Below, piece after piece: positions 7,612 to 14,191 of a DNA stretch of 14,469 bases. Where the stretch lies: the IMG/VR virus record IMGVR_UViG_3300033074_002177; one strand, written 5' to 3'. The notes beneath the pieces were generated by a model that worked only from the letters and a program-made list of their open reading frames with translations, had not been told where the DNA came from and searched no databases. Positions within the stretch are counted from its first letter, which is position 1; each line of letters begins with the position of its first letter. A program made the position numbers and the translations under genes. Source of the DNA: a virus.

Positions 7612-7615
7612 ACAA

Positions 7616-8371
7616 ATGAAGAAACGCAGGAAGATAATCATCGGTGACGTCCACGGTTGCGTCGACCAACTCGAACGGCTACTGAAGGACGTCAATAGGA
7701 CACCTGACGATCACGTGATCATGTTGGGAGACCTCGTCGACAGAGGACCCGACAGCGCCGCTTGCATCGACGTCGCGATCCGGATCCAACTCGAACAAGG
7801 TTCGCCGTCAGCCATCATCGGCAACCATGAAGAGAAACACCTCATGTACGAACACAATCGTCGCGAGCCGACGCACCCTGAGCACATACGTACACGTTCA
7901 CAGTTGAAACGTCATCACTACGATTTCATCCGTTCGATGCCGACGTACGTCTCTCTGCCTGAAAACAACGTCGTCTGTGTACATGCAGGCGTGTGGCCCA
8001 ACAGACCGATGCACGAGCAAAGGATGACGCATCTGCTCCACGCTCAGATGATCAATCCTAGCGGCGACACAGAAAAATCGTACTGGCCGAGCAAGGTTCC
8101 ACAGCATCAAACGGGCTGGGAATTTTGGACGAAGCACTGGAAGGGACCAGAAAGGGTCGTGTTCGGTCACACTGTCATGACAGAGCCGTTAATTACAGAC
8201 AAGGCGGTCGGTCTAGACCTCGGGGCCTGCTTCGGCGAACGATTGTGTGCACTCGTCATTGATCCTGATGACGTTGAACACATCGTCACAATCGATTGCA
8301 GCGAACTGAAGGGAGGTCACACCCGCGTCTCAAGACATCATATCGAAGGAAACGTTTACTGCTACGGGTGA
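7616..8371 (+). CDS. PPP-family metallophosphoesterase (lambda-phosphatase / ApaH-like Ser/Thr phosphatase or phosphodiesterase)
   Basis: Canonical motifs are present: GDVHG (IIIGDVHGC), GDLVDRG, GNHE, HAG and GH (VVFGHTV). GAGGT lies 9 nt upstream of the ATG at 7616. The track's 7586 start is in frame but lacks an RBS. Confidence 0.8.
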   Translation: MKKRRKIIIGDVHGCVDQLERLLKDVNRTPDDHVIMLGDLVDRGPDSAACIDVAIRIQLEQGSPSAIIGNHEEKHLMYEHNRREPTHPEHIRTRSQLKRHHYDFIRSMPTYVSLPENNVVCVHAGVWPNRPMHEQRMTHLLHAQMINPSGDTEKSYWPSKVPQHQTGWEFWTKHWKGPERVVFGHTVMTEPLITDKAVGLDLGACFGERLCALVIDPDDVEHIVTIDCSELKGGHTRVSRHHIEGNVYCYG

Positions 8372-8379
8372 GGTGTGAA

Positions 8380-8592: not shown

Positions 8593-8835
8593 TCAACTAC
8601 GCCAGGCGATTCTGCCGCGGGTGAGGTCGTACGGCGATACGACGACCTTGACGTGATCACCGGGTAAGATCTTGATCTTGTTGATCCTGAGCTTGCCAGA
8701 CAACGTACACAACACATCGACTCCATTTCCGACGGTGACCTTGAAAAGGGTCCCTGGCAATGCCTCAGAGACGACGCCGTCGAGAGAAACCTGATCGTCA
8801 CGGCTGGAATCGTCGTTTCCACGCTTTTGTTTCAT
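8593..8835 (-). CDS. infA: Translation initiation factor IF-1 (S1-like OB fold)
   Basis: About 50% identity by eye to E. coli IF-1 over the whole domain. GVVSEALPGTLFKVTVGNGVDVLCTLSGKLRINKIKILPGDHVKVVVSPYDLTRGRIAWR aligns to [60 protein letters not shown]. Confidence 0.85.
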   Translation of the reverse strand: MKQKRGNDDSSRDDQVSLDGVVSEALPGTLFKVTVGNGVDVLCTLSGKLRINKIKILPGDHVKVVVSPYDLTRGRIAWRS

Positions 8836-8900
8836 GTAGACTACAATACACCATGACGATCAAATGTGCACCTTGACCGGGCACATGGTACAATCGTACA

Positions 8901-9377
8901 ATGAAACGAATTTTCATTGTCGCGTTGTTCACCGCATCGTGTGCATTTCACATCGATCCCGCCGCCACTGTGCACGTGCCTCAAGCGTGCACGCTCGATG
9001 GACAAACGTGGTCGTTGACTGTCCCAATCGATTGGGCGTGTCGAGACAACTACGCCGACTCTGCGACGGATCCTCCCTATGCAGCGGTCGTCGTCAATGA
9101 TTGGCCGCGTCTCCCACTAGAGCGCGGCGCGTTCTCAGCTGTCGTGCAATCAGTGACGTTGGCAGTTCACCACAACGTCACGAGCGTCCAACAGGTGTCT
9201 GTCGGTGACAGTGCCGGCTCGTTGGTCGAATACGATGACGGCAGTCTCGTGATGACACAACTGGCGTTCCAATGTGGAGACGTCGGCACCGTCGTCAAGT
9301 GCGCGTCAACGAACGCCAGAGGGCTTGAAGCCTGCCGTTCGATCGTTTCGAGCATTGACGTCGTCTGTCCGCAGTGA
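8901..9377 (+). CDS. Secreted/periplasmic cysteine-rich protein, 158 aa, with an N-terminal signal peptide
   Basis: N-terminus MKRIFIVALFTASCAFH is a hydrophobic signal sequence. The rest contains 8 Cys. No domain recognised. Confidence 0.5.
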   Translation: MKRIFIVALFTASCAFHIDPAATVHVPQACTLDGQTWSLTVPIDWACRDNYADSATDPPYAAVVVNDWPRLPLERGAFSAVVQSVTLAVHHNVTSVQQVSVGDSAGSLVEYDDGSLVMTQLAFQCGDVGTVVKCASTNARGLEACRSIVSSIDVVCPQ

Positions 9378-9551
9378 CCGTCGGCGTGTCTTCAGCCACA
9401 CGTTGAACGTGTACTTCGCCGTGATCAGCACGATCGCCAGGCTGAACGTGAAGTAGTCGTTCAATACATTGCCGACGATCGCCACGATGATCACCGACAG
9501 CAACAACGCGATTGCGTTCATCAACGTATTTTCGCCCTTCATTTTGTGCAT
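9306..9551 (-). CDS. Small membrane protein, ~81 aa, with two predicted TM helices and a basic C-terminus (holin-like topology).
   Basis: NAIALLLSVIIVAIVGNVL and FTFSLAIVLITA are hydrophobic stretches, followed by the basic stretch KTRRRSLR. Codon usage is strongly genome-typical (ACG/ATC/GTC/GAC). It overlaps the 3' end of 8901-9377 convergently by 72 nt. No RBS seen. Confidence 0.35.
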   Translation of the reverse strand: MHKMKGENTLMNAIALLLSVIIVAIVGNVLNDYFTFSLAIVLITAKYTFNVWLKTRRRSLRTDDVNARNDRTAGFKPSGVR

Positions 9552-9963: not shown

Positions 9964-11571
9964 TCAAACGTCATAAACGACAGCATCAAGCTGAAGGAAG
10001 GTCAGTGCGACGGACACCGCGTGTCTTAGCGCTGACCTCGTGACATTTGCTGGATCGATGATCCCAGCGTCAACCATGTTGACGTACTCACCGGTCGCCG
10101 CGTTGAATCCAACGCCCGGCGAACAGATCCTCGTGATCTCTGCGATGACGACCTCAGGCACCATGTCAGCGTTCGCGACTATCCTCGAGATGGGAGCCTT
10201 CAAGGCCGAAAACAGCACGTCCATACCAGTTTTTACATCCCGTGTAATGGTGGTATCCAATGGCCTGTGCCGGTCAATTATTCTAGCGGCCTCTAGAAGG
10301 GCAAGACCACCGCCTGGTACGACCCCTCCAATGGCCGCGGCCTTGGTGGCATTCAAGGCATCCTCGACACGAGCCTTTCTCTCGACCATCTCGACCTCTG
10401 TCGCTCCTCCGACCTTGACGACAGCGACACCGCCCGTCAACCTTGCCAACCTCGACCTGATCCACGCTAGGTCCTCGGCGCTTAGCGTCGGATCAGCGAC
10501 GAGTTCTCTGACGTTGTTGACGTGCTCCTTCAACGCTTCTGATGCCTGCGACACGACCAACGTCGTCGACTTTGCGTCAACTATGAACTTTTTCACCGTT
10601 CCGAAGCACTGTGCCGGGCTCGTCAACGAGCCTCCAGTCGCAGAGGACAACAACTTCGCTCCTGTCAATGCACAGATGTCGGCCAACATGTCAGCCTTCC
10701 TTTGACCGTGCGCAGGTGCCTTGACCACGCACAACGAGATGTTCTTGCGAGCGACGTTTACGACGGCCGTGTTCATCGCCTCATTTTCAATGTCGTCTGC
10801 GATGATCAGCAACGGATGACCAAACTTTGCGGCCGCCTCCATGGCCGGAACGATGTCGCCCAACGTCGACAGTTTCTTGTCGGTCACCAAGACGACTGCG
10901 TCGACGTACGTAGAGACCATTCGCTCTGGATTCGTGACGAAGTACGGCGAGACGTACCCACGTTCGAACTGCATGCCCTCGACGAGGGTCATCGTCGTCA
11001 TCATCCCGACGGCATCTTCGACGGTGATGATGCCGTCAGAGCCGACCTTCTCCATTGCATCAGCAATGAGATCGCCGATCTTAGAGTCACCGTTTGCACT
11101 GACGGTGGCGACCTTGGCGAGGTCTGCACGTGACTTGACAGGGATCGCGTTGTCCTCGAGGTGTTTGTCTACGATGAACGCTGCACGTTCGATGCCCTCG
11201 CACAGTGCCCTTGGCGAGAATCCAGCATCACGTAAACGAAGGCCTTCCGCCACCAACGCGAGCGTCAAGACCGTCGAGGTCGTCGTGCCATCACCTGCGA
11301 CATTGTTCGTCGCAGACGCAGATTCTTTGACGAGCGCAGCACCCATACGTTTGACCGGATCGGCGAGGTCGATGGACCTACAGACTGTCACGCCGTCCTT
11401 CGTCACCAAGGGTGTGCCATCTTCACGTTGGATGATGACCGTCTTCCCCTTAGGTCCTAAGGTCGTCGCGACAGCTTTTGCTGCGATCTCGAGTCCCTCG
11501 AACAACCGTTTCGTTGCGGAGGGAGAGAATTCGACCTCAGTGGTTCGTTTCTTCGATCTTTCGTCAATCAT
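9964..11571 (-). CDS. groEL: Chaperonin GroEL/Hsp60 (group I, Cpn60), 535 aa. Divergent, with no C-terminal GGM tail.
   Basis: GroEL signatures throughout: TLGPKGKTVII, TKDGVTVCRSIDL, AGDGTTTSTVLTLAL, GMQFERGYVSPYFV, KAPAHGQRKADM, GGVAVVKVGGATEVEMVERKARVEDAL, GVVPGGG and GIIDPANVTRSAL. Confidence 0.9.
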   Translation of the reverse strand: MIDERSKKRTTEVEFSPSATKRLFEGLEIAAKAVATTLGPKGKTVIIQREDGTPLVTKDGVTVCRSIDLADPVKRMGAALVKESASATNNVAGDGTTTSTVLTLALVAEGLRLRDAGFSPRALCEGIERAAFIVDKHLEDNAIPVKSRADLAKVATVSANGDSKIGDLIADAMEKVGSDGIITVEDAVGMMTTMTLVEGMQFERGYVSPYFVTNPERMVSTYVDAVVLVTDKKLSTLGDIVPAMEAAAKFGHPLLIIADDIENEAMNTAVVNVARKNISLCVVKAPAHGQRKADMLADICALTGAKLLSSATGGSLTSPAQCFGTVKKFIVDAKSTTLVVSQASEALKEHVNNVRELVADPTLSAEDLAWIRSRLARLTGGVAVVKVGGATEVEMVERKARVEDALNATKAAAIGGVVPGGGLALLEAARIIDRHRPLDTTITRDVKTGMDVLFSALKAPISRIVANADMVPEVVIAEITRICSPGVGFNAATGEYVNMVDAGIIDPANVTRSALRHAVSVALTFLQLDAVVYDV

Positions 11572-11611
11572 GACGATCGATCTTACACCGAGCCTCAGAT
11601 GTTGTTTAATG

Positions 11612-11872
11612 TCATGCGTCGCGGGTGACTCTTATGTACGACAGTTTACCGCGCTTCCACGCAACTGCTATGTCACCGTCGACGAAATCATCTATCAGGT
11701 CGAGGATGATGTTTCGCTGTTGTTTGTCGGTGATGTTCATCACGTAACGTCGCATACGAAACTCGCTGAGGTCTAGGACGTTCCGTGTGTCCTGTGACCT
11801 CAGCGAGGAATGCAACGCATAGTCTGTCGAGCAGTCGAACGAACCGATTCCGGTGGGATTTTTCGTTGCCAT
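11612..11872 (-). CDS. Hypothetical protein, 86 aa, immediately upstream of groEL on the same strand. Not recognisably GroES.
   Basis: Clean ATG start. No GroES mobile-loop or roof motifs. Confidence 0.45.
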   Translation of the reverse strand: MATKNPTGIGSFDCSTDYALHSSLRSQDTRNVLDLSEFRMRRYVMNITDKQQRNIILDLIDDFVDGDIAVAWKRGKLSYIRVTRDA

Positions 11873-11880
11873 CGTGAGTT

Positions 11881-11908
11881 CGTTTTGTGGTCTAGACCCT
11901 TCAAAACG
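11881..11908 (-). promoter_or_regulatory. Hairpin/palindrome between the AAA ATPase gene and the small ORF. 7-bp stem cgttttg/caaaacg enclosing a perfect 10-bp palindrome GGTCTAGACC.
   Basis: Seen directly. It lies 8 nt upstream of the 11872 start codon on the − strand. No U-tract follows, so it is a candidate operator or RNA element rather than a terminator. Confidence 0.3.
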
Positions 11909-11955
11909 TAACTATCGTGGCATCTTGAACAATGTCGATGCAACCCACTTTCAGT

Positions 11956-13266
11956 TTATTCATCAACTTCGTCTTCATCAAGAACAAAATCTGCCTTAGA
12001 CTTCAAAAAGTTACTACCGTACTTCCTGCGTGTCATCTCTTCTTTCTGCCAGGCATCATTTGACTGATCTCCCGCCTTGAAGACATCCGACCACGATCGG
12101 TCTGTCGATCGACCCAGCGTCCTGGCCCTGTTCGCCAACTCTAACATGCTCTGTTCAGCGTCCTCTGAGGACATGAACTTACGTCTGGCGACGTACTCTT
12201 GGATGAACGCGATCGGCCACTCTTTCACGAACTCAAAACCGTCCTGGTACTCGCCAAGGACCTTCTTGACGACTCCTTCGTCCATACGGTCAACGTCGAT
12301 GAGTTCGTCGAACCTACCCGGTCTCAACAACGCGTCCTCGAGGCGGCTGACGTTATTTACTGAGACGATGACGAGCTTTACGTTCTTTTTGAAGAACTCG
12401 ACGACGTCGAGCGCCGCTGTCTGGTTGTGAATCCTGTCAAAGTCATCGATGATGAGAGCCTCCGGCTTGAACAACGAGATGATGTCGTACACGACAGTCG
12501 AGACATTTCCATCGAGATCGCCGACCTTGATTCGGAACGATCGAAGCCCAAGGATAGAGATGATCGTTTGTGCCATCGTCGACTTCCCCGTGCCCGGGGG
12601 TCCCTTCAACATCACACAACGGTGAACGTCTGCGTCAAGGCATCTCTTGATGTACGTTGCATAACGAGTCGCCTGTTCGCTCTCGAGCGCATCGTGCATG
12701 TTATCAACGTTGAACACGTGTCGTTTTGATGAACTGGTGTCCATCATCTGGAACGGCGCGACGTTCAGGACCAACGACTTTGATCCATACTTTTCCCACA
12801 AAATGTGTGAAACGATGTCACGAGCCTTTTCTACCTTGTCAGAGCTGACCAACATCGAGATCAACGCCATTGTGTTGACGTAGTACGTGAATCCGAACGT
12901 GACACCGTCGATCGTCACGAGGAAGATGGCGCTGGTACCCTCCGACGTCTTGATCGATCGACGATCGGGATGGTTCTTCATCAGCGAGAAGACCACCTCA
13001 CTGATCATTCGTGAACACGGTTCGATCCAGTCCTCAGAGTCAAAGTACTCGTGCGTCCAGACCTCAGCATCGTCCATGATGATCTTTCCTATCGCGAAAG
13101 CTGAGCGTGCTATCTGGATCGGTCCGGGTTTCTCGAATGCGGGTGCCAAAGAATCGAACACCTTCGTCCCAACGTTGACGACACGTTTGACCGTCGGTTG
13201 ATTCGCGACCTTGTTCAAACCGTCCATCGTCGTCCGGACAAGAGTAATCGCATCACCGATTTTCAT
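11956..13266 (-). CDS. AAA-family ATPase (classical AAA with second region of homology), 436 aa
   Basis: Walker A LKGPPGTGKST. Walker B ALIIDDFD. SRH/arginine fingers LLRPGRFDELIDV. A ~200-aa N-terminal domain of unknown type. Confidence 0.85.
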   Translation of the reverse strand: MKIGDAITLVRTTMDGLNKVANQPTVKRVVNVGTKVFDSLAPAFEKPGPIQIARSAFAIGKIIMDDAEVWTHEYFDSEDWIEPCSRMISEVVFSLMKNHPDRRSIKTSEGTSAIFLVTIDGVTFGFTYYVNTMALISMLVSSDKVEKARDIVSHILWEKYGSKSLVLNVAPFQMMDTSSSKRHVFNVDNMHDALESEQATRYATYIKRCLDADVHRCVMLKGPPGTGKSTMAQTIISILGLRSFRIKVGDLDGNVSTVVYDIISLFKPEALIIDDFDRIHNQTAALDVVEFFKKNVKLVIVSVNNVSRLEDALLRPGRFDELIDVDRMDEGVVKKVLGEYQDGFEFVKEWPIAFIQEYVARRKFMSSEDAEQSMLELANRARTLGRSTDRSWSDVFKAGDQSNDAWQKEEMTRRKYGSNFLKSKADFVLDEDEVDE

Positions 13267-14191
13267 TTTTGAACTTACCTTTCAAGTTGAACTTTCGAAG
13301 AGGATGATTGATGTACATCAGATCCTTGCCCAATTGCACGAGTCTGTCTCGATCAGATCGAATGAAATCCCGGTCAAAGAACTCAGGTAATTTTTCGTCC
13401 TTATAACGATGCGACGCTATGGCCCATGACAACGCAGCGACCGTCCTCGTTTCGCCACCAAACATGATCGCATCTGATAGAATTCCCATCAACGTTCTTT
13501 GGCGAGTCACAAGATGACTTACGGCACATGCGACGTTCATCTGCTTGTTCATCTTCCTGTGATCGATCGGTCTGTCGTTGACGGGCCCGTGCCAAGGATC
13601 AGCAAAAACTTTGTGTGCAGGGTGCCTTTTGACGATCCAATCGTGCATTGTCATGAATGAACATTGGTAGATCGAGAAGTGCATCATCAACGCTACTGAT
13701 ATCGCTGCGTTGATCGACGACCACGACTGCTCAGTCAACAATGACGATGTCACCGTCGCCTCGATGACCTTCGACGGATCTGACATGACACCAAACGCAG
13801 CGGCTCGCTTGATTGCCGTCATCGTCGACTTCAAGTTTGTTGCTTGAAACTTGAACTTATCGACGGTCGTGCCTCGTTCAAGTACACGAACGTATTCCTC
13901 TTCGTGTCCGTACCGTGCGTTCGACGCATGCTCTTTGATGATCGCTGCGATGCACCGGTCGTTCGTTATGTGAACGTTGTCTTCTTTGAGAAGTTCACAC
14001 ATCGATACCATCGACTCTGTGACGTCAGTGTACGACCTACTCGAATAGTTCCCATACCCGTTGAACGCCAACGCGGCTGCCATGTCGGTCTTGTGTTGTT
14101 GTTGATCGTATCTTTCACGAGTGTAATCAGCAGCGTACGCATCAGCCTGCGCCATCCGAAACAGAAATTGTTCGTTATACCGTTTGCTCAT
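13253..14191 (-). CDS. All-alpha protein, 312 aa, possibly of ADP-ribosylglycohydrolase (ARH/DraG) fold with substituted metal-binding residues. Tentative.
   Basis: The ORF is solid and its stop overlaps the AAA ATPase start by 14 nt. C-terminal FGGETRTVAALSWAIAS resembles the ARH motif GGDTDTxAAIAGAL, but the second Asp is Arg and the N-terminal GDAxG motif is not conserved. Call is from memory of the motif only. Confidence 0.4.
   Translation of the reverse strand: MSKRYNEQFLFRMAQADAYAADYTRERYDQQQHKTDMAAALAFNGYGNYSSRSYTDVTESMVSMCELLKEDNVHITNDRCIAAIIKEHASNARYGHEEEYVRVLERGTTVDKFKFQATNLKSTMTAIKRAAAFGVMSDPSKVIEATVTSSLLTEQSWSSINAAISVALMMHFSIYQCSFMTMHDWIVKRHPAHKVFADPWHGPVNDRPIDHRKMNKQMNVACAVSHLVTRQRTLMGILSDAIMFGGETRTVAALSWAIASHRYKDEKLPEFFDRDFIRSDRDRLVQLGKDLMYINHPLRKFNLKGKFKNENR

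What the first reader, a model, noticed from the sequence alone, without database searches (positions are those of the whole stretch)
8593..8835. Orphan bacterial-type IF-1 (infA) among hypothetical genes
This is a clear IF-1 homolog, about 50% identical to E. coli IF-1. It sits between a PPP phosphatase and secreted or hypothetical proteins. It is not in a ribosomal-protein or adk-map context. This suggests a second, accessory or mobile-element copy.

A phage-borne IF-1 could bias host translation initiation toward phage mRNAs or substitute for a host factor. Its 8-residue N-terminal extension, MKQKRGNDDSSRDD, is unusual.
Basis: partly seen in the sequence, partly recalled or inferred. Interest (0 to 1): 0.55.

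Follow-up and report, generated by a model that had tools for sequence, protein, structure and literature searches.

The report
Phage-encoded translation initiation factor IF-1
This is a real, intact copy of the bacterial translation initiation factor IF-1, carried next to a chaperonin gene by an uncultured, large-genome, phage-like lineage; IF-1 genes in huge phages are already published, so it is a new example of a known phenomenon.

Summary
Window 8593-8835 (minus strand) is an intact 80-aa ORF that passes the curated IF-1 thresholds (TIGR00008: 88.3 bits, cutoff 61.15). Its model has the IF-1 OB fold, about 1 A rmsd from ribosome-bound IF-1.

The context is not a bacterial chromosome. The gene lies in a conserved module (ADP-ribosylglycohydrolase, AAA ATPase, 86-aa gene, GroEL, IF-1, PPP phosphatase, vault-like protein). 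Parts of this module, with IF-1 near GroEL or the phosphatase, recur on 12 independent contigs of 17-345 kb. Several are IMG/VR viral contigs. They carry phage-type genes and no ribosomal-protein context. Shine-Dalgarno motifs on the window's own contig point to a bacterial host.

These IF-1s form a distinct subtype: LPG instead of LPN, Tyr/Phe44 replaced by Arg/His/Lys, and usually a basic N-terminal tail. Their divergence tracks GroEL divergence, so the gene is inherited with the genome rather than freshly captured.

Phage-encoded IF1 is published (Al-Shayeb 2020; Lak phages; Sinorhizobium phage Phosso). The likely role is supplying IF-1 to host 30S subunits during infection; this is inferred, not tested.

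No terminase, portal or full-length capsid gene was found in the DNA I could reach. Interest is modest.

The parts
8593..8835 (-). IF-1 (infA-type) coding sequence, 80 aa plus stop. It is the only minus-strand gene between two plus-strand genes, so here it looks monocistronic.
   Evidence: ORF; PF01176 73.7 bits; TIGR00008 88.3 bits over cutoff 61.15; phrog_30201 74.9 bits. The identical protein is found in three independent samples. Both nucleotide differences from the 99.3%-identical copy L002 are synonymous.
8806..8835 (-). Codons 1-10: N-terminal tail (MKQKRGNDDS), basic then acidic, predicted disordered.
   Evidence: Mean pLDDT 49 for residues 1-10. Window residue 11 aligns with E. coli residue 2. 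LPG-type IF-1s have a median of 17 residues before the core, with net charge +3.3 in the first half and -1.8 in the second.
8596..8805 (-). Codons 11-80: S1-like OB-fold core of IF-1, carrying the subtype signature (LPG at 26-28, CT at 43-44, Lys53 at the Tyr44 position of E. coli).
   Evidence: AlphaFold2 block-mean pLDDT is 79 for residues 11-20 and 90-91 for residues 21-80, with five strands and a short helix. Foldseek top hits are bacterial IF-1 at 0.9-1.2 A rmsd, including the 30S-bound chains 1hr0_W and 9fco_I.
8836..8900 (.). 65-bp divergent intergenic region between IF-1 and the 8901-9377 gene. There is no Shine-Dalgarno motif before either ATG. It contains TACAAT boxes and short inverted repeats.
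   Evidence: Sequence; upstream 20-mers; three TACAAT copies and the inverted repeat ATGTGC/GCACAT. One promoter-like site on the plus strand and none for IF-1. Five of the 59 differences from L002 fall here.
9964..11571 (-). GroEL-type chaperonin, the conserved neighbour of IF-1 in this lineage.
   Evidence: PF00118 221 bits. NCBIfam GroEL subfamily models pass, but the equivalog TIGR02348 does not (554.7 below cutoff 582.1). phrog_5725. Relatives of 50-54% identity lie 1.5-7 kb from IF-1 on ten other non-redundant loci.
11612..11872 (-). Conserved 86-aa gene immediately upstream of GroEL, function unknown.
   Evidence: tblastn relatives at the same position on L085, L086, L005, L093, L095 and L125.
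11956..13266 (-). Clade-specific AAA+ ATPase (classic AAA, FtsH/proteasomal-ATPase-like domain).
   Evidence: PF00004. 37-43% identical orthologs upstream of GroEL on 9 loci. No full-length match in the phage collection. One relative in GTDB.
13253..14191 (-). ADP-ribosylglycohydrolase-family gene; overlaps the AAA gene by 14 nt.
   Evidence: PF03747; syntenic on L085, L086, L093 and L125.
7616..8371 (+). PPP-family (ApaH/NinI-like) metallophosphatase, the conserved neighbour on the other side of IF-1. The longest ORF starts at 7586.
   Evidence: PF00149; phrog_246 NinI-like, E 7.8e-38; 42-51% identical orthologs near IF-1 on L085, L093, L095 and L124; a Metallophos gene in the same position on L118 and L119.
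7022..7348 (-). Conserved hypothetical gene (108 aa as called; the ORF extends to 7477).
   Evidence: Called on L001. tblastn relatives of 36-45% identity near IF-1 on L097, L093 and L095.
1667..4396 (+). Major-vault-protein-like gene (start at GTG 1667 or ATG 1781). It is part of the same syntenic block in some relatives.
   Evidence: MVP_shoulder 101.5 bits, plus Vault and Band_7. In the phage collection the only matches are the curated huge-phage genomes LR756500, LR756501 and LR756503, at 41-42% identity. Relatives of 59-63% identity lie on eight IMG/VR contigs, three of which also carry the phosphatase, with IF-1 (L121, L124) or GroEL (L125) beyond it.

Best explanation
The ORF encodes a functional IF-1 that belongs to the genome of an uncultured, large-genome (probably over 300 kb) tailed phage of bacteria. 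The gene is a long-standing resident of that lineage and is inherited together with a neighbouring chaperonin / AAA ATPase / phosphatase block. During infection the protein most likely binds the A site of host 30S subunits, as bacterial IF-1 does, between helix 44 and uS12. There it would co-operate with host IF2 and IF3, raising or maintaining the IF-1:ribosome ratio so that initiation on phage mRNAs continues once host gene expression is shut down. It would act alongside other phage-encoded helpers of protein production found in the same lineage: GroEL, peptide deformylase and methionine aminopeptidase. What is shown: family membership, fold, conservation, synteny, and the non-chromosomal context. 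What is inferred: ribosome binding, and any benefit to the phage.
For: IF-1 identity.

Residues invariant across 53 homologs include Lys48, Arg50, Arg75 and Arg79. These correspond to E. coli Lys39, Arg41, Arg66 and Arg70. Assigning them to the 30S-binding surface is from my own knowledge.

Constraint: the identical protein occurs in three samples, and both differences from L002 are synonymous.

Lineage gene: all ten closest homologs whose context I examined sit near GroEL, and nine of those also have the AAA gene upstream. L124 shows phosphatase-IF-1. IF-1 pairwise identities correlate with GroEL (Mantel r 0.40, p 0.005) and with AAA (rho 0.43). The gene's GC equals the window's (0.539).

Viral context: syntenic IMG/VR contigs of 160, 309 and 340 kb. 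PHROG matches for GroEL, NinI-like phosphatase, endolysin, NUDIX and exonuclease. T4 endoV, FEN, GIY-YIG, endonuclease VII and phage lysozyme in the flanks. Short proteins carrying the Gp23 capsid-family motif. The vault-like protein matches only curated huge phages in the phage collection.

Bacterial host: SD-like motifs precede 51% of genes on the window's contig, against a 12% background.

Not cellular: only 1 relative of the AAA gene in GTDB, and no L36, S13, S11 or Adk near any clade IF-1.

Precedent: huge phages carry IF1 and IF3, interpreted as redirecting host translation. A cultured 469-kb phage, Phosso, has an annotated IF-1 near Clp ATPases, a DnaJ-like protein and peptide deformylase. 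In bacteria a raised IF:ribosome ratio changes translational preference in cold shock (abstract of PMC6511846).

Related helpers in the lineage: peptide deformylase on L095 and type I methionine aminopeptidase on L125, both above the curated cutoffs.
Against: No terminase, portal or full-length major capsid gene was found in roughly 300 kb of DNA held for this lineage. The Gp23 hits are 165-205-aa proteins carrying only the N-terminal motif.

IMG/VR membership is a computational call. One relative is binned in a Bdellovibrionota MAG.

One relative with the same layout (L125) has no IF-1 at the syntenic position, so the gene is dispensable for at least one member.

The subtype departs from canonical IF-1 at positions that are usually conserved (Asn19 to Gly, His35 to Thr, Tyr44 to Lys/Arg/His in E. 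coli numbering). This could mean altered or weakened ribosome binding.

Neither a Shine-Dalgarno motif nor a consensus promoter was found for the gene.

Nothing about expression or activity was tested.
Confidence: 0.6

Rival explanations
1. It is a specialised reprogramming factor rather than a simple supplement. In this reading the LPG-type core changes and the basic N-terminal tail alter start-site or mRNA selection on host ribosomes, so that phage messages are preferred. Such messages might have weak or absent Shine-Dalgarno sequences, short leaders or unusual start codons. The tail would play a role similar to the tails of eIF1A.
For: The subtype signature is consistent across the clade. 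The smallest tree split holding all 11 syntenic IF-1s contains 68 sequences, all LPG-type and none canonical. Tails are basic then acidic, with a median of 17 residues against 3. An unrelated cultured phage, Bacteroides phage SJC03, encodes an IF-1-like protein with a basic tail of about 35 residues. Phage rpS21 proteins also carry basic N-terminal extensions. SD usage varies widely between clade members (51% against 12% background on L004; 12% against 10% on L117). eIF1A and aIF1A are structural relatives.
Against: Two of the 11 syntenic orthologs essentially lack the tail (L117 MNNNND, L119 MDE), so it is not essential. The tail is poorly conserved in sequence and predicted disordered. Bootstrap support for the subtype clade is weak (16 of 100 under a strict criterion). 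The core is as similar to the best canonical IF-1s (69%) as to many clade members. There are no functional data.
Confidence: 0.2
2. It acts mainly as an RNA chaperone or cold-shock-like RNA-binding protein (for example in transcription antitermination or RNA melting) rather than on the ribosome. This would use the S1/CspA-like OB fold.
For: The fold is the S1-like OB fold shared with RNA-binding proteins. There is a weak match to the RsgA N-terminal OB domain. From my own knowledge, not checked here, E. coli IF1 has RNA chaperone activity. Several residues typical of canonical IF-1 are replaced.
Against: The protein scores above the curated equivalog cutoff for IF-1 itself. All top sequence and structure matches are IF-1, not Csp or S1 proteins. 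The basic residues invariant in IF-1 are retained.
Confidence: 0.08
3. It is the housekeeping infA of a bacterial chromosome or a small-genome symbiont; the contigs were wrongly called viral.
For: One related contig belongs to a MAG labelled Bdellovibrionota. No full-length capsid, terminase or portal gene was found. The flanks of relatives contain some cellular-type genes: a PrkA-DUF444-SpoVR operon, aspartate carbamoyltransferase, PRPP synthetase and a tRNA.
Against: No ribosomal protein, Adk or L36 lies near any clade IF-1. The AAA gene has only one relative in 185,579 species genomes. The gene content is dominated by short ORFs with no Pfam match on record and by phage-type genes. GroEL falls below the bacterial equivalog cutoff. 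Several syntenic contigs are in IMG/VR. One layout-identical relative lacks the gene, which an essential sole infA could not tolerate. The PrkA/SpoVR/DUF444 genes match PHROG phage families strongly.
Confidence: 0.04
4. It is a passenger gene captured from a host, with no role for the phage.
For: The gene is absent at the syntenic position in one relative (L125). No recognisable SD or promoter precedes it.
Against: It is retained near GroEL or the phosphatase in 12 of the 13 non-redundant loci that cover that region, across GroEL divergence of about 50%. The ORF is intact everywhere. Its divergence tracks neighbouring genes. Differences between strains are synonymous only. Its composition equals that of the genome.
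Confidence: 0.05

Closest known systems
Bacterial translation initiation factor IF-1 (infA; e.g. E. coli chain 9fco_I, C. difficile 6C00, T. thermophilus 1HR0 chain W)
   Same: It is a single S1-like OB domain and scores above the curated family cutoffs. It is 47-54% identical to solved bacterial IF-1s and superposes at about 1 A rmsd, including on ribosome-bound forms. The invariant Lys and Arg residues are retained.
   Different: It is encoded on a virus-like genome rather than a chromosome. It has a 9-residue N-terminal tail. It carries LPG instead of LPN, Thr instead of His35, and Lys instead of Tyr44 (E. coli numbering). It is probably not essential to its carrier.
IF1 genes of huge phages (Al-Shayeb et al. 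2020, PMC7162821; Lak megaphages MK250015-29; uncultured phage LR756511; soil huge phages, PMC11748809)
   Same: This is the same phenomenon: a bacterial-type IF-1 on a phage genome of hundreds of kilobases, interpreted as interception or redirection of host translation. IF-1 relatives occur on 242 IMG/VR stretches, and few of the best 80 have a bacterial operon context.
   Different: The lineage is different. There is no nucleotide match to any deposited phage, and IF-1 is only 49% identical to the Lak and LR756511 copies. The clade-specific AAA gene is absent from the phage collection. The conserved AAA-GroEL-IF-1-phosphatase block and the LPG subtype did not come up in the four papers I consulted; I did not search the literature for them specifically.
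Sinorhizobium phage Phosso (PV764938, cultured, 469 kb), annotated IF-1
   Same: It is a cultured huge phage whose IF-1 lies among protein-quality-control genes (Clp-family ATPases, a DnaJ-like protein, peptide deformylase). This parallels the GroEL/AAA neighbourhood here.
   Different: Its IF-1 is the canonical 72-aa LPN type without a tail and is 46% identical. It shares no AAA or vault-like homolog with this window.
Bacteroides phages SJC03 and DAC15-like (MT074146 etc., cultured, about 170 kb), unannotated IF-1-like gene SJC03_4
   Same: It is a cultured tailed phage with an IF-1-like protein that has a long basic N-terminal tail and with a GroEL homolog. GroEL is the last gene of the record and the IF-1-like gene is the fourth, so they would be neighbours if the record's ends are contiguous.
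   Different: The core is much more divergent (50% identity over 60 residues, E 2e-10) and is neither LPG nor LPN type. The host group differs. The adjacency depends on an unverified joining of the record ends.
eIF1A / aIF1A (eukaryotic and archaeal orthologs of IF-1)
   Same: It has the same OB core (Foldseek probability 1.0, TM-score normalised to the query 0.70-0.73) plus unstructured terminal tails.
   Different: This protein is clearly the bacterial type by sequence. It has only a short N-terminal tail and no C-terminal tail or helical subdomain.

Membership tests
Bacterial IF-1 (infA; TIGR00008 / PF01176) | Sequence match to the curated family model above its trusted cutoff | tested here: met
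   TIGR00008 equivalog 88.3 bits (cutoff 61.15), covering profile positions 1-68 of 69. PF01176 73.7 bits (cutoff 30.2).
Bacterial IF-1 (infA; TIGR00008 / PF01176) | Single-domain S1-like OB fold (five-stranded barrel with a short helix between strands 3 and 4), about 70-90 aa | tested here: met
   AlphaFold2 model: mean pLDDT 84, strands at 16-26, 30-35, 40-45, 61-66 and 73-79, helix at 47-51. The best Foldseek hits are bacterial IF-1 at 0.9-1.2 A rmsd. This is a prediction, not a solved structure.
Bacterial IF-1 (infA; TIGR00008 / PF01176) | Conserved basic residues of the loop and C-terminus that face the 30S subunit (E. coli Lys39, Arg41, Arg66, Arg70; assignment from my own knowledge) | tested here: met
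   Lys48, Arg50, Arg75 and Arg79 are invariant in the 53-sequence alignment. However, Tyr44, His35, His30 and Asn19 of E. coli are replaced.
Bacterial IF-1 (infA; TIGR00008 / PF01176) | Binds the 30S A site and stimulates IF2/IF3-dependent initiation | not testable with these tools
   This needs biochemistry or cryo-EM. The canonical binding mode is described in PMC13345285.
Bacterial IF-1 (infA; TIGR00008 / PF01176) | Essential housekeeping gene of a cellular genome | tested here: not met
   The context is virus-like, with no ribosomal or adk/map/rpmJ neighbours. A layout-identical relative lacks the gene. This feature concerns the carrier, not the protein family.
Phage-encoded translation factors of huge phages | Gene located on a phage genome (virion and packaging genes on the same molecule) | tested here: inconclusive
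   Syntenic contigs are IMG/VR entries of 160-340 kb. Many phage-type genes are present. Gp23-motif proteins are present, but no full-length capsid, portal or terminase gene lies within the DNA I could reach. Walking further along the contigs was not possible.
Phage-encoded translation factors of huge phages | Genome over 200 kb | tested here: inconclusive
   The window's own contig is at least 65 kb and incomplete. Syntenic relatives reach 309, 324, 340 and 345 kb.
Phage-encoded translation factors of huge phages | Bacterial host (bacterial-type translation signals) | tested here: met
   SD-like motifs precede 51% of genes against a 12% background on the window's contig. Start/stop overlaps are typical of operons.

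The most novel reading that the evidence does not exclude
The LPG-type IF-1 of this lineage is a phage-adapted initiation factor. Its altered decoding-site loop (Tyr44 to Lys/Arg/His, His35 to Thr, Asn19 to Gly) and its basic-then-acidic N-terminal tail would change how host 30S subunits select mRNAs or start codons. In this reading the factor is co-inherited with a phage chaperonin / AAA / deformylase / aminopeptidase set as a viral 'protein production module'. The independent appearance of a basic tail on the IF-1-like protein of cultured Bacteroides phage SJC03 would then reflect convergent evolution.
Probability: 0.2. Interest if true: 0.6.

Novelty: new member of a known kind. Interest (0 to 1): 0.3.

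Why it matters
Phage-encoded initiation factors have been catalogued but, as far as my literature searches showed, not characterised functionally. This locus defines a well-populated, recognisable IF-1 subtype. At least 68 database sequences group with it, and 12 of them (11 next to GroEL, one next to the phosphatase) have their syntenic context confirmed. It is inherited with a chaperonin block in a lineage of large soil and environmental phages. That gives experimenters a concrete set of natural variants, with and without the tail, to test whether viral IF-1 merely tops up the host pool or changes start-site selection. It does not reveal a new principle.

Tried and rejected
- Megablast of the whole window against 50,697 phage records: no match.
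- Exact-pattern search of IMG/VR for the IF-1 gene: no match. The window itself is not in IMG/VR.
- Look-ups of the vault-like protein with two alternative starts: not on record.
Pattern-derived loci return only about 9 kb. I therefore could not reach virion genes.
- Synteny with the curated huge phages LR756500 and LR756501 around their vault-like genes: only the vault-like gene is shared. I do not place this lineage in their clade.
- I suspected the many 70-100-aa ORFs in the window were paralogs of one small beta-domain family. BLASTP and phmmer all-against-all found nothing, so I dropped the idea.
- Searching IMG/VR with the Gp23-motif alignment to find a full-length capsid gene on the clade's contigs returned only the short genes plus unrelated T4-like capsid genes.
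- The first GTDB scan with the single AAA protein found nothing. The alignment-based scan found one relative.
- Rfam scan of the window: nothing. tRNA scan of the window: nothing.
- The consensus promoter and terminator scan gave no site for IF-1. My by-eye idea that the -10-like TATTGT 7 nt before the ATG makes the mRNA leaderless is not supported by any tool, and the feature is not conserved (L085 has an SD).
- I considered a eukaryotic giant virus, because UvdE, Fpg, papain, TANGO2 and MVP recall such viruses. I rejected it on SD enrichment, operon-style overlaps, and bacterial-type Def, Map and IF-1.
Full report
**1. The observation**

The window contains an ORF at exactly 8593..8835 on the minus strand, with an ATG start and 80 codons plus stop. 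It matches Pfam PF01176 at 73.7 bits (cutoff 30.2). It also matches the NCBIfam infA equivalog TIGR00008 at 88.3 bits (cutoff 61.15), covering almost the whole profile.

All twelve solved-structure sequence matches are bacterial IF-1. The best is the C. difficile protein 6C00, at 85 bits.

Identity to E. coli IF-1 is 47-48% without gaps. The aligned part is unaffected, and searches are independent of it.

Window residues 11-80 align with residues 2-71 of the 72-aa E. coli chain. The protein is therefore 9 residues longer at the N-terminus and one shorter at the C-terminus.

An AlphaFold2 model built on 53 homologs has mean pLDDT 84. Block means are 90-91 for residues 21-80. It shows the five-stranded OB barrel with a short helix, and a disordered N-terminal decapeptide. 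It superposes on bacterial IF-1 at 0.9-1.2 A rmsd, including the 30S-bound chains 1hr0_W and 9fco_I.

**2. What kind of genome this is**

The window also encodes:
- a major-vault-protein-like protein (1667/1781-4396);
- a PPP/ApaH-like phosphatase (7616-8371; phrog_246, NinI-like);
- a GroEL-type chaperonin (9964-11571; phrog_5725; below the bacterial GroEL equivalog cutoff);
- an AAA+ ATPase (11956-13266);
- an ADP-ribosylglycohydrolase-family protein (13253-14191);
- many short ORFs without family matches.

There is no tRNA and no Rfam family in the window.

The identical IF-1 protein is on contigs from three independent samples, the longest 65 kb. The window is 99.9% identical to that contig and 99.3% identical to a second one. 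The extra flank on that contig carries two NUDIX genes, a FEN-type 5'-3' exonuclease, a T4-endoV-type pyrimidine-dimer glycosylase, an HhH-GPD glycosylase and a trypsin-like protease.

The window has no nucleotide-level match in 50,697 phage records and is not itself in IMG/VR.

**3. A conserved module in a lineage of large, virus-like genomes**

Using GroEL, IF-1 and the vault-like protein as probes, I found the same gene order (ADPRGH, AAA, 86-aa gene, GroEL, then IF-1 on the GroEL strand, then the phosphatase, then in some members the vault-like gene) or parts of it on these contigs:
- IMG/VR contigs of 340, 309, 160 and 42 kb (L085; L086 and L121, which are the same contig; L005; L124);
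- ENA and Logan contigs of 345, 324, 50 and 18 kb (L093, L118, L119, L116), and a JGI contig of 68 kb (L117);
- a 142-kb contig of NCBI assembly GCA_020049755.1 (L095);
- an 89-kb contig binned in a Bdellovibrionota MAG (L097).

Every one of the ten closest IF-1 homologs whose context I examined lies in this module.

Their flanks hold phage-typical genes: GH25 and phage-lysozyme endolysins, GIY-YIG and NUMOD3 homing-endonuclease domains, endonuclease VII, UvdE, Fpg and NUDIX. A PrkA-DUF444-SpoVR set is also present, and its best matches are PHROG families. None of the family matches listed by the bulk scans (the 25 most-matched families per scan) is a ribosomal protein.

Short proteins of 165-205 aa carry the N-terminal motif of the T4 Gp23 major-capsid family, above Pfam's cutoff. 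However, they are not full-length capsid proteins.

The clade-specific AAA gene has one relative (L097) among 185,579 GTDB species genomes and no full-length relative in the phage collection.

In the phage collection the vault-like protein matches only three records, representing two genome sizes, all curated huge phages: LR756500 (462 kb) and LR756501/LR756503 (735 kb). That resemblance does not extend to neighbouring genes.

SD-like motifs precede 51% of the genes on the window's contig against a 12% background, and start/stop overlaps are common. The translation signals are therefore bacterial, which argues against a eukaryotic giant virus.

My reading is that this is an uncultured lineage of large tailed phages. 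The missing piece is a terminase, portal or full-length capsid gene, which I could not reach.

**4. The IF-1 is a resident gene of that lineage and forms a distinct subtype**

Among 11 non-redundant syntenic loci, IF-1 pairwise identity is 49-77% (GroEL 50-81%). IF-1 divergence correlates with GroEL divergence (Mantel r 0.40, permutation p 0.005) and with AAA divergence (rho 0.43). The gene's GC content equals the window's (0.539). Both nucleotide differences from the 99.3%-identical strain are synonymous.

All 11 share a signature: LPG instead of the canonical LPN, Cys/Ala-Thr instead of Ala-His, and Arg/His/Lys at the position of E. coli Tyr44.

In a neighbour-joining tree of 184 unique cores, the smallest split holding all 11 contains 68 sequences, all LPG-type and none canonical. 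Bootstrap support is weak, as expected for 67 residues.

LPG-type proteins have a median of 17 residues before the core, against 3 for canonical ones. The first half of that tail is basic (net +3.3) and the second acidic (-1.8). Two syntenic orthologs essentially lack it.

One relative with the same overall layout (L125) has no IF-1 between the phosphatase and GroEL. The gene is therefore usually retained, but not always.

**5. How it most likely works**

Residues invariant across 53 homologs include the Lys-x-Arg of the loop after strand 3 and the C-terminal arginines. The fold matches ribosome-bound IF-1.

Canonical IF-1 sits in the 30S A site between helix 44 and uS12 and holds A1492 and A1493 flipped out (PMC13345285). 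In E. coli, a raised IF:ribosome ratio shifts translational preference during cold shock (abstract of PMC6511846).

The most economical mechanism is that the phage protein joins host 30S subunits and keeps initiation running, or speeds it up, during a long infection in which host gene expression is curtailed.

The lineage also encodes GroEL next to IF-1. Individual members encode a bona fide peptide deformylase (L095) and a type I methionine aminopeptidase (L125). Together these suggest a set of helpers covering initiation, nascent-chain processing and folding.

All of this is inference. Expression and activity were not tested, and no SD or consensus promoter precedes the gene.

Rivals are set out in the Rival explanations section: a start-site reprogramming factor, an RNA chaperone, a chromosomal infA, and a passenger gene.

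**6. Comparison with what is known**

Phage-encoded IF1 is published. Al-Shayeb et al. 2020 state that many huge phages carry IF1 and IF3 and interpret them as intercepting or redirecting host translation. A 2025 study reports the same for soil huge phages.

In the phage collection, IF-1 relatives are found in the following:
- Lak megaphages;
- the 595-kb uncultured phage LR756511;
- the cultured 469-kb Sinorhizobium phage Phosso, where it is annotated and lies near Clp ATPases, a DnaJ-like protein and peptide deformylase;
- cultured Bacteroides phages of the DAC/SJC group, where it is unannotated.

Some other 'phage' records with hits look like bacterial contamination; for example, Acinetobacter phage MD-2021a carries both infA and groL.

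In IMG/VR, 242 stretches encode relatives, and only 5 of the best 80 have Adk or L36 nearby.

Three things appear specific to this locus: the lineage itself, the conserved AAA-GroEL-IF-1-phosphatase block, and the LPG subtype.

**7. Verdict**

However, the phenomenon is already known, so I class this as a new member of a known kind, with interest 0.3.

The most novel reading not excluded is that the LPG-type, tailed IF-1 is a phage-adapted factor that changes mRNA or start-codon selection. I give it probability about 0.2, and interest 0.6 if true.

Noticed in passing
window 1667-4396 (+): An approximately 870-910-aa major-vault-protein-like gene (MVP shoulder, Vault repeats, Band_7). In the phage collection it matches only the curated huge phages LR756500, LR756501 and LR756503 (41-42% identity). 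It has 59-63% relatives on eight IMG/VR contigs of up to 369 kb. A 2023 preprint (10.1101/2023.11.10.566534) reports what it calls the first viral MVPs, from two gut phages; these environmental ones look like a larger, separate set.
   Followed up: partly
window 9964-13266 (-) and relatives L085, L086, L093, L095, L097, L116-L119, L125: An AAA+ ATPase, a conserved 86-aa gene and GroEL always occur in this order on one strand. The AAA protein has no full-length homolog in the phage collection and only one relative in GTDB. This could be a phage-specific chaperone or unfoldase system. The 86-aa protein has no family match and does not look like GroES.
   Followed up: partly
window 6138-7058 (+): The precomputed annotation of this gene on the source contigs lists Pfam PF26128 'Gad2'. 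My own Pfam scan found no family and PHROGs gave only an unknown-function family (phrog_4400). In the literature Gad2 is a phage anti-Gabija protein. I did not verify that PF26128 is that family.
   Followed up: partly
window 7059-7376 and 8836-8900: Of the 59 differences between the window and the 99.3%-identical contig L002, 9 fall in the 7059-7376 stretch (part of it overlaps the conserved minus-strand ORF 7022-7348) and 5 fall in the 65-bp IF-1 upstream intergenic region. These are far denser than in the coding regions.
   Followed up: no
window 8836-8910: The divergent intergenic region has three TACAAT hexamers (8842, 8889, 8897; the last overlaps the ATG at 8901), an inverted repeat ATGTGC/GCACAT, and a perfect 9-bp hairpin spanning the start of the 8901 gene (8898-8906 / 8912-8920). 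No SD motif precedes either gene. These may be regulatory, or the mRNAs may have short leaders.
   Followed up: partly
L095 19081-19575, L118 14653-15207, L122 14552-15166, L124 15462-16082, L127 19937-20542: Conserved 165-205-aa proteins fuse a small beta-domain (PGDWV...VLWS) to the N-terminal motif of the T4 Gp23 major-capsid family (VxIQPMxxPxxxIFYLDY). They are too short to be capsid proteins, and no copy was detected in the window.
   Followed up: partly
L097 (JBBAUR010000009.1, MAG labelled Bdellovibrionota) 3944-8379 and 16237-17196: A relative of this lineage carries a PrkA / DUF444 / SpoVR operon (strong PHROG matches), an aspartate carbamoyltransferase, and a tRNA-Gly next to the AAA-UvdE-GroEL-IF-1 block. 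The binning may be a weak hint about the host, or it may be a binning artefact.
   Followed up: partly
L004, L093, L117, L118: Shine-Dalgarno usage differs sharply between members of the lineage: 51% against a 12% background on the window's contig, about 32% on L093 and L118, and 12% against 10% on L117. This suggests hosts with different initiation signals.
   Followed up: no
L125 4829-5593; L095 12439-12939: Members of the lineage encode a type I methionine aminopeptidase (TIGR00500, 255.6 bits, cutoff 171) and a peptide deformylase (TIGR00079, 136.6 bits, cutoff 104). Together with IF-1 and GroEL these form a set of protein-production helpers.
   Followed up: yes
MT074146.1 (Bacteroides phage SJC03) 629-934 and 165151-166773: In this cultured phage an unannotated 101-aa IF-1-like gene with a long basic N-terminal tail is the fourth gene of the record, and a GroEL homolog is the last gene. 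If the record's ends are contiguous they are neighbours, echoing the GroEL-IF-1 linkage seen here.
   Followed up: partly
window 8901-9377 (+) and 9306-9551 (-): The 158-aa ORF has a signal-peptide or lipoprotein-like N-terminus (MKRIFIVALFTASC...). The convergent 81-aa ORF, which overlaps it by 72 nt, is strongly hydrophobic and membrane-like. Both are called as genes on the source contigs, and neither has a family match.
   Followed up: no
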